Positions 37,694 through 37,783 of a stretch of DNA of 37,783 bases are shown here, piece after piece (position 1 is the first letter of the stretch; every line of letters starts with the position of its first letter). Location: the IMG/VR virus record IMGVR_UViG_3300029190_000005; one strand, written 5' to 3'. The position numbers and the translations under genes are program-made. The stretch comes from a virus (lineage: Duplodnaviria > Heunggongvirae > Uroviricota > Caudoviricetes). The notes beneath the pieces are model-generated. The model did no database searches. It was not told where the DNA came from and worked only from the letters and a program-made list of their open reading frames with translations.

Positions 37694-37783
37694 TGAACCG
37701 CCCCGGGTTTCCTGGAGAGTGTTTTATCTGTGAACTCAGGCTGCCAGATCATCGTTTCCGATGGAAGCATAATAAGCTTTTTC
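37694..37783 (-). mobile_element. Terminal part of an IS3-family insertion sequence (IS629-like), continues beyond the window
   Basis: TGAACCGCCCCGGGTTTCCTGGAGAG... at 37694 matches the IS629-type terminal inverted repeat as I recall it; the minus strand reads ...EKAYYASIGNDDLAA*, plausible as a transposase C-terminus; GC content changes abruptly here. Confidence 0.6.

What the first reader, a model, noticed from the sequence alone, without database searches (positions are those of the whole stretch)
37694..37783. IS3-family (IS629-like) element inserted in the 3' end of the tail spike gene
From 37694 the sequence reads TGAACCGCCCCGGGTTTCCTGGAGAGTGTTTTATCTGTGAACTCAGG..., which matches the IS629-type inverted repeat from memory, and the minus strand encodes a plausible transposase C-terminus. 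The tail spike frame leaves its AT-rich domain and terminates 13 codons into the IS. With the amber codon in the nozzle gene this points to a decaying prophage; IS629 would also suggest an E. coli O157 or Shigella-type host.
Basis: partly seen in the sequence, partly recalled or inferred. Interest (0 to 1): 0.5.

Follow-up and report, generated by a model that had tools for sequence, protein, structure and literature searches.

The report
IS629 insertion splitting a prophage tail spike
The last 90 bases of the window are one end of the common E. coli jumping gene IS629/IS1203, which has inserted into the tail spike gene of a phiV10-like prophage; this is an ordinary, well-known way for prophages to be disabled.

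Summary
Confirmed and ordinary. Window 37694-37783 is 100% identical to the transposase-distal (IRR) end of IS629/IS1203, an IS3-family element found in about 75% of complete E. coli genomes. The transposase C-terminus (EKAYYASIGNDDLAA*) lies on the minus strand.

The rest of the window (1-37693) is collinear with a phiV10/epsilon15-like prophage at guaA in E. coli Ecol_881 and 31 other complete genomes. All of these break homology with the window exactly at 37693/37694. Their tail spike is 709 aa. Here it is cut in codon 551 and stops after 12 IS-encoded residues.

The window is a whole metagenome contig that ends in the repeat. I found the other side of the insertion in the same sample: IS629 left end, then GAT, then the rest of the tail spike, the lysis genes, attR and yfgI. 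This is a simple transposition with a 3-bp target duplication (GAT), not a deletion or a misassembly.

The only other difference from the intact prophage is a CAG-to-TAG nonsense mutation at 22692, carried on the same contigs. That supports recent prophage decay. The O157/Shigella host inference is not supported. Novelty: none. Interest: low.

The parts
37694..37783 (-). First 90 nt of an IS629/IS1203-type IS3-family insertion sequence. This is the IRR (transposase-distal) end, and the element is oriented with its transposase on the minus strand. The contig ends inside the repeat.
   Evidence: 90/90 identity to annotated IS1203-family copies. Also identical to the end of a full 1310-bp copy on plasmid NZ_CP025917.1.
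37694..37718 (.). Terminal inverted repeat (IRR), starting with the 5'-TG typical of IS3-family ends. It matches IRL at 23 of the first 25 positions.
   Evidence: IRL/IRR comparison on the full-length copy whose ends are identical to this insertion. The reciprocal ...GGTTCA end is seen in L017 and L016.
37736..37783 (-). Last 15 codons plus the stop codon of the IS transposase (OrfB part of OrfAB): EKAYYASIGNDDLAA*.
   Evidence: Translation. It is identical to the C-terminus of the 296-aa OrfB of the full-length copy, which hits NCBIfam NF033516 'IS3 family transposase' (1e-93) and Pfam rve. The RefSeq CDS ends at the same IS position.
37691..37693 (.). Target site GAT, the proximal copy of the 3-bp target-site duplication.
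   Evidence: The distal junction in L017 (same sample as L003) and in L016 reads ...GGGGCGGTTCA-GAT-AATTGAATATGG. The intact gene reads ...GGAAGGAT-AATTGAATATGG.
36042..37733 (+). Truncated tail spike ORF of 563 codons: 550 native codons, one junction codon and 12 IS-encoded codons. The intact protein is 709 aa, so the C-terminal 158 residues are displaced beyond the IS.
   Evidence: ORF list. The intact 709-aa gene is annotated in Ecol_881. The intact protein covers PHROG tail protein families end to end, hits Pfam PF12708, and its residues 1-180 are homologous to the N-terminus of the Dpo31/Dpo36 tailspikes.
22692..22694 (+). TAG nonsense codon (CAG in all intact relatives) at codon 296 of the 823-aa tail gene 21807-24278. 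This is the second lesion of the same prophage.
   Evidence: It is the only mismatch between window 1-37693 and the Ecol_881 prophage. Phage EC.W1-9 has CAG. The 295-aa product and the IS-truncated tail spike lie on the same JGI contig.
61..77 (.). attL core ATTGAGTGGGAATGATT at the 3' end of guaA, the left boundary of the prophage that carries the IS.
   Evidence: The same 17-mer recurs at the right prophage end in Ecol_881 (L008 43678-43694). guaA and integrase annotation.

Best explanation
A copy of IS629 (the IS629/IS1203/IS3411 isoform group of the IS3 family) transposed into the tail spike gene of a roughly 40.6-kb phiV10/epsilon15-like prophage. The prophage is integrated at the 3' end of guaA in a gut E. 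coli.

**Shown.**
- The IS sits between tail spike codons 550 and 552, with its transposase antisense to the gene.
- It duplicated the 3-bp target GAT.
- The rest of the prophage on both sides is untouched.
- The tail spike ORF now ends 12 codons into the IS, and the last 158 residues are separated from the N-terminal 550.
- The window stops 90 nt into the IS because short-read metagenome assemblers break contigs at multi-copy repeats.
- The same prophage also carries a CAG-to-TAG nonsense mutation in an 823-aa tail gene.

**Inferred.**
- Insertion went through the copy-out-paste-in route of IS3-family elements: a circular IS copy, made by the OrfAB DDE transposase, integrates into the target.
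- The inserted copy is a complete 1310-bp element.
- The truncated tail spike is non-functional, because the cut removes the end of the beta-helix and the C-terminal domain. The lysogen would then make no infectious particles, and the prophage is a recently disabled, decaying one.
For: **IS identity and boundary.**
- 90/90 identity to annotated IS1203-family elements.
- The IS terminus lies exactly where all 32 intact homologues diverge from the window.
- The transposase C-terminus is on the minus strand.

**Simple insertion.**
- The reciprocal junction carries the IS629 IRL end, GAT, and then the remaining tail spike. Holin, endolysin, attR and yfgI follow. It lies on contig k119_38282 of sample ERZ27262136, the same sample that holds the proximal junction on k119_17921. 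A second assembly, ERZ914930, shows the same junction.
- The 179 nt of IS seen on the IRR side and the 127 nt on the IRL side are both 100% identical to one full-length 1310-bp copy, NZ_CP025917.1 59208-60517. That copy encodes OrfA (HTH_Tnp_1) and OrfB (rve; NF033516, 1e-93) with an annotated programmed frameshift.
- Published IS629 behaviour fits: 3-4 bp duplications, and 62% of copies in O157 genomes lie in prophages (PMC3271280). Copy-out-paste-in is described for the IS3 family (bioRxiv 10.1101/2023.06.07.543989).

**Recent decay.**
- Window 1-37693 differs from the Ecol_881 prophage at a single base, the amber codon.
- The amber codon and the IS share a contig.

**A local source of the IS.** Most of the listed chromosomes that carry the intact prophage gave one or more extra matching places beyond the tail spike itself. 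These are probably IS ends, so a donor copy is available in such hosts.
Against: - The interior of the inserted IS is not assembled in any contig I could reach. A full-length, active element is therefore inferred, and an internally deleted copy is not excluded.
- Loss of tail spike function is inferred and was not tested. My structure model of the intact protein was unusable (pLDDT 35).
- The deposited genome of phage EC.W1-9 carries a C7-to-C6 frameshift that already truncates the same tail spike at about residue 597. If that change is real and not a sequencing error, the last 110 or so residues may be dispensable.
- The assemblies that share the insertion may be re-assemblies of the same or related human-gut read sets. 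The labels are PRJEB6997, ZHAN15, JGI 3300045988 and ERZ27262136. How many independent occurrences they represent is unknown.
Confidence: 0.95

Rival explanations
1. The join between tail spike and IS is a metagenome assembly artefact: a chimeric contig end created at a repeat, not a real insertion.
For: The window is a whole metagenome contig that ends 90 nt into a multi-copy repeat. All contigs that carry the junction stop inside the IS.
Against: - The join is exactly at the first base of the IS terminal repeat.
- The reciprocal join exists in the same sample, with the 3-bp duplication GAT expected of IS629.
- The same junctions were produced by assemblies with different contig naming and k-mer labels: k119, k127, 'scaffold' and JGI.
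- A chance misjoin would not produce a target-site duplication.
Confidence: 0.02
2. The IS end marks an IS-mediated deletion or inversion. The rest of the tail spike and the right end of the prophage would then be lost or moved, and this would not be a simple insertion.
For: Two scans of the metagenome collection found no distal junction, and no tail spike 3' segment from the JGI sample. IS629 is known to cause adjacent deletions (PMC3271280).
Against: Exact-protein look-up found the distal junction. It carries GAT followed by 3358 nt collinear with Ecol_881 (one mismatch), through the lysis genes and attR into yfgI. It comes from the same ENA sample as a proximal junction. The empty scans are explained by those ENA assemblies not being in the scanned collection.
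Confidence: 0.03
3. Only a remnant of the IS is present: a solo end or an internally deleted, non-autonomous copy, not a complete 1310-bp element.
For: Only 179 nt on one side and 127 nt on the other are assembled, and the interior is unseen.
Against: Both termini are present, perfectly identical to a full-length copy, and flanked by an intact target-site duplication. This is the signature of a fresh transposition of a whole element. The prophage is otherwise almost unchanged, with one SNP in 37.7 kb, which leaves little time for internal decay.
Confidence: 0.05

Closest known systems
IS629 / IS1203 / IS3411 (isoforms of one IS3-family insertion sequence of E. coli and Shigella, 1310 bp)
   Same: - The terminal 90 nt are identical to annotated copies.
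- The ends are TG...CA imperfect inverted repeats.
- The target duplication is 3 bp.
- The transposase C-terminus is identical.
- The target is a prophage gene, the commonest location reported for IS629.
   Different: Nothing in kind. The inserted copy is not the O157 'IS1203' subtype. Its left end differs from that copy at 6-9 of 119-127 nt. The full-length copy that matches both of its ends differs from the O157 copy at 49 of 1310 positions. That is within the 4-5% spread between published IS629 subtypes. I could not name the exact isoform without ISfinder.
phiV10 / epsilon15-like temperate podophages (prophages at guaA), e.g. Escherichia phage EC.W1-9 (PP445227) and the prophage of E. coli Ecol_881
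   Same: - Window 20000-37693 matches EC.W1-9 with a single mismatch, at the amber site.
- Window 1-37693 matches Ecol_881 with the same single mismatch.
- Gene order, integrase, att core and tail spike N-terminal domain are the same.
   Different: This copy carries the IS in the tail spike and an amber codon in the 823-aa tail gene. phiV10 itself shares only the conserved structural genes (about 96% identity over 37% of the query) and has a different receptor-binding part.
IS629/IS1203v insertional inactivation of prophage genes in E. coli O157 (e.g. stx2::IS1203v)
   Same: The same element disrupts a gene carried by a prophage.
   Different: The prophage type, the gene (tail spike rather than toxin) and the host background differ. 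No IEE-mediated excision is implied or tested here.

Membership tests
IS3 family, IS629/IS1203 isoform group | Nucleotide identity to reference copies of the element | tested here: met
   The window's 90 nt match RefSeq-annotated 'IS3-like element IS1203 family' copies at 90/90. With sister contigs, 179 nt plus 127 nt of the two ends are 100% identical to a 1310-bp copy. ISfinder itself was not available.
IS3 family, IS629/IS1203 isoform group | Imperfect terminal inverted repeats ending 5'-TG...CA-3' | tested here: met
   The window has TGAACCGCCCCGGGTTTCCTGGAGA at 37694. The distal contigs end ...TCCAGGATTCCCGGGGCGGTTCA. IRL and IRR agree at 23 of the first 25 positions.
IS3 family, IS629/IS1203 isoform group | Short (3-4 bp) direct target-site duplication | tested here: met
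   GAT lies on both sides: window 37691-37693 and L017 120-122 / L016 128-130. The empty site has a single GAT. The published range for IS629 is 3-4 bp.
IS3 family, IS629/IS1203 isoform group | orfA (HTH) and orfB (DDE/rve) joined by a programmed -1 frameshift into the OrfAB transposase | tested here: inconclusive
   Only the last 15 codons of orfB are in the window, and they are identical. Sister contigs add the first 20 or so codons of orfA. The full arrangement was seen only in the reference copy with identical ends: HTH_Tnp_1, rve, NF033516 at 1e-93, and an annotated frameshift with ALIL pseudoknot.
IS3 family, IS629/IS1203 isoform group | Element length of about 1310 bp | not testable with these tools
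   No available contig spans the insertion. All of them break inside the repeat.
Phage tail spike (phiV10/epsilon15-type, pectate-lyase-like beta-helix) | Conserved N-terminal particle-binding domain followed by a right-handed beta-helix receptor-binding/depolymerase domain | tested here: met
   Residues 1-180 match the N-terminus of the Dpo31/Dpo36 tailspikes (E = 3e-32). Residues 198-255 hit PF12708 (1.3e-11). PHROG tail protein families 13893 and 20231 cover the protein end to end. The fold itself was not confirmed, because the model was unusable.

The most novel reading that the evidence does not exclude
The tail spike of this prophage group may be a preferred target of inactivation in lysogens. 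Besides this IS629 insertion I saw four other lesions in the same module:
- the end of a multi-copy IS (IS1 by recall) joined 13-14 bp away;
- a TGA nonsense codon;
- a three-way split of the ORF;
- a C7 homopolymer frameshift.

This could reflect selection against expressing an O-antigen-degrading enzyme from a resident prophage, or retention of a truncated N-terminal fragment with a new role. The alternative is plain neutral decay.
Probability: 0.05. Interest if true: 0.3.

Novelty: already known. Interest (0 to 1): 0.08.

Why it matters
There is little to learn beyond annotation.

- **Contig end.** The insertion explains why the contig ends here: the assembler broke at a repeat.
- **Annotation.** The 563-aa 'protein' should be annotated as a disrupted tail spike. 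This viral contig, and its IMG/VR sibling, should be treated as a defective prophage fragment of E. coli, not as a complete or active phage.
- **Host prediction.** An IS629 end should not be used to infer an O157 or Shigella host.
- **Dating the decay.** Two inactivating lesions in tail genes, against an otherwise identical 37.7-kb background, are a clean small example of very recent prophage inactivation.

Tried and rejected
1. **Pattern scans for the distal junction.** I scanned viral contigs and metagenome contigs for GGGGCGGTTCA, a gap of 0-8 nt, then the downstream tail spike sequence. Neither scan found anything. A scan for the downstream segment alone found only two intact tail spikes, L006 and L007. 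This briefly suggested an IS-mediated deletion. I rejected that once exact-protein look-up of the 151-aa C-terminal ORF returned the distal junction contigs.
2. **Structure model.** A single-sequence AlphaFold2 model of the 709-aa tail spike, meant to locate the cut in the fold, gave pLDDT 34.9 and was unusable. I ran no fold search.
3. My first translation of the O157 IS copy was out of frame and uninformative. The six-frame translation replaced it.
4. **Native tail spike variant.** I considered that the 3' sequence might be a native variant of the tail spike. All 32 full-length homologues continue differently from 37694, so I rejected this.
5. **O157/Shigella host.** Rejected on IS prevalence, on the strains that carry the identical prophage, and on the IS subtype.

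Full report
**Observation**

A megablast of these 90 bases against 5,426 complete E. coli genomes gave 100% full-length matches in thousands of records. In all, 6208 records and 4073 genomes matched, with a median of 3 places per genome. Where annotated, the features are called 'IS3-like element IS1203 family transposase' or 'IS3 family transposase'.

In an annotated O157:H7 copy the element is 1310 bp. It begins with exactly this sequence, ends ...GGGGCGGTTCA, and is flanked by a 3-bp duplication (CTT). Its frameshifted transposase CDS ends at IS position 43. Transferred to the window, the transposase stop lies at 37736-37738 on the minus strand. The minus strand of 37736-37783 translates to EKAYYASIGNDDLAA*, which is the C-terminus of OrfB.

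**What the IS interrupts**

The ORF 36042-37733 has 563 codons. Thirty-two complete E. coli genomes match window 35900-37693 at 99.4-100% identity, and none of the matches extends beyond 37693.

In E. coli Ecol_881 the gene is a 709-aa 'glycosyl hydrolase family 28-related protein'. After ...GGTGGAAGGAT it continues AATTGAATATGG..., where the window continues TGAACCGCC....

The intact protein has these features:
- a conserved N-terminal domain, residues 1-180, E = 3e-32 to the Dpo31/Dpo36 tailspikes;
- a pectate-lyase-like hit, PF12708;
- end-to-end matches to PHROG tail protein families.

It is a tail spike. The IS cuts inside codon 551. ATA becomes ATT, which is still Ile. Twelve IS-encoded residues (EPPRVSWRVFYL) and a TGA follow. 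The C-terminal 158 residues are displaced.

**Context**

Window 1-37693 is collinear, without indels, with Ecol_881 chromosome 4679027-4716719. It starts 75 nt before the guaA stop codon. A 17-bp att core (ATTGAGTGGGAATGATT, window 61-77) recurs at the right end of the prophage. An integrase, a RecT/exonuclease module, replication genes, terminase, portal, capsid and tail genes follow.

The closest named phages are the phiV10/epsilon15 type. The sewage isolate Escherichia phage EC.W1-9 (40,616 bp) matches window 20000-37693 with a single mismatch, at the amber site.

**Is the insertion real, and is it simple?**

The exact 563-aa product is on record only from JGI/IMG and ENA metagenome assemblies. 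Its longest contig is 37,783 bp, so the window is a whole contig. Sister contigs (ERZ27262136 k119_17921; JGI 3300045988, which is also IMGVR_UViG_3300045988_101581) are identical to the window. They also stop inside the IS, after 179 and 97 nt. Short-read assemblers break contigs at multi-copy repeats in this way.

Pattern scans for the far junction found nothing. I then searched with the 158-aa C-terminal segment and found a 151-aa ORF cluster. Exact look-up of one member returned contig k119_38282 from the same sample, ERZ27262136, and a k127 contig from ERZ914930.

Both contigs begin inside the IS at its other end and read ...GTTTAGTCTCCAGGATTCCCGGGGCGGTTCA-GAT-AATTGAATATGGCAATG.... From there they continue collinear with Ecol_881 through the rest of the tail spike, a 99-aa ORF, two holins, the endolysin, the DUF2514 gene and attR, into yfgI and yfgH. 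Over 3358 nt there is one mismatch.

This is therefore a simple insertion with a 3-bp target-site duplication (GAT; window 37691-37693 is the proximal copy). It is not a deletion, an inversion or a misassembly. A 3-4 bp duplication is what has been published for IS629. In O157 genomes 62% of IS629 copies lie in prophages (PMC3271280).

**Which IS?**

The assembled ends (179 nt on the IRR side, 127 nt on the IRL side) are 100% identical to one full-length 1310-bp copy, on plasmid NZ_CP025917.1 at 59208-60517. That copy carries orfA (HTH_Tnp_1) and orfB (rve; NCBIfam NF033516 'IS3 family transposase', 1e-93), with an annotated programmed frameshift and pseudoknot.

That copy differs from the O157 'IS1203' copy at 49 of 1310 positions. 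The left end of the insertion differs from the O157 copy at 6-9 positions. Published IS629 subtypes differ by 4-5%, and IS1203 and IS3411 are regarded as isoforms. 'IS629-like' is therefore correct. The exact isoform needs ISfinder. The interior of this particular insertion is unassembled, so its completeness is inferred.

**Mechanism**

The following are shown:
- precise termini;
- the target-site duplication;
- intact flanks;
- premature termination of the tail spike ORF.

The following are inferred from established knowledge of the IS3 family:
- copy-out-paste-in transposition through a circular intermediate made by the OrfAB DDE transposase;
- a donor copy elsewhere in the same cell. Most of the listed chromosomes that carry the intact prophage gave one or more extra matching places beyond the tail spike itself, probably IS ends.

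Also inferred is that a tail spike lacking its last 158 residues does not assemble or function. By eye the cut falls at the end of the repetitive beta-helix region, ahead of a separate C-terminal domain.

I could not test this. The single-sequence structure model was unusable (pLDDT 34.9). One caveat applies: the EC.W1-9 record has a C7-to-C6 frameshift that truncates the same protein at about residue 597. That is either a homopolymer sequencing error or a sign that the extreme C-terminus is dispensable.

**Prophage decay**

Besides the IS, the only difference between window 1-37693 and the Ecol_881 prophage is C-to-T at 22692. It changes CAG to TAG at codon 296 of the 823-aa tail gene 21807-24278. 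EC.W1-9 has CAG. The 295-aa truncated product and the IS-truncated tail spike lie on the same JGI contig.

Two inactivating lesions in tail genes on an otherwise identical background indicate very recent inactivation.

The assemblies that share these lesions may be re-assemblies of overlapping human-gut data sets. I do not claim independent occurrences.

**Host**

The O157/Shigella inference is not supported.
- The IS end is present in 75% of complete E. coli genomes.
- The identical prophage occurs in human, dog, bird and dolphin isolates such as strains ST648, ECONIH1 and Ecol_881.
- The IS subtype is not the O157 one.

**Verdict**

This is a known insertion sequence in a known kind of target, with a known kind of consequence. 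The finding is useful for annotation (disrupted tail spike, defective prophage, contig broken at a repeat) but is not novel.

Noticed in passing
window 22692 (gene 21807-24278, + strand): CAG-to-TAG nonsense mutation at codon 296 of an 823-aa tail protein gene (PHROG 376). It is the only base difference between window 1-37693 and the intact Ecol_881 prophage. It lies on the same contigs as the IS insertion. A Logan contig (L011, SRR15095371) ends 2 nt beyond codon 295, i.e. at the variant site.
   Followed up: yes
window 61-77; L008 43678-43694: A 17-bp att core, ATTGAGTGGGAATGATT, overlaps the guaA stop codon and recurs at the right prophage end. The contig starts only 60 nt to the left of it, so both contig ends coincide with repeats or variable junctions.
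   Followed up: partly
L018 1-60 (ERZ28521428) and L015 (GCA_049842855.1): Another multi-copy element end is joined to the same tail spike module 13-14 bp upstream of the IS629 site. It is present in 4958 of 5426 E. coli genomes, and I recognise it from memory as an IS1 terminus. The context is a different prophage remnant, with an integrase and focA-like genes downstream.
   Followed up: partly
L023 (phage EC.W1-9, PP445227.1) 20832-20838; equivalent to L001 5933-5939: The deposited phage genome has C6 instead of C7 in the tail spike. The resulting frameshift gives a 624-aa 'eliminase' plus a small downstream ORF, in place of the 709-aa protein. This is either a homopolymer sequencing error or a viable C-terminally truncated tail spike.
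   Followed up: partly
L012 9853-9858; L014 4329-6456: There are further independent lesions of near-identical tail spike receptor-binding modules. One is a TCA-to-TGA nonsense codon in a P22-like prophage that carries this module behind a P22 head-binding domain. The other is a three-way split (491 + 37 + 151 aa) in an otherwise similar guaA prophage.
   Followed up: no
window about 10972-12865 (L008 13972-15865): Even the 'intact' reference prophage has four RefSeq-annotated pseudogene fragments in the early/accessory region (frameshifted or partial hypothetical and DUF551 genes). The 26-kb sister contigs begin at about 11.6-11.8 kb of the window, within this region.
   Followed up: no
window about 15907-15983, minus strand (L008 18907-18983): In the reference annotation the prophage carries a tRNA-Arg gene between the terminase region and the portal gene. 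I did not check it with ARAGORN.
   Followed up: no
L017 position 1143 (= L001 6815), between the 99-aa ORF and the holin gene: In the distal contigs there is a single SNP relative to Ecol_881 in the intergenic region upstream of the holin gene, plus five differences in host yfgH. The host is therefore close to Ecol_881 but not identical to it.
   Followed up: no
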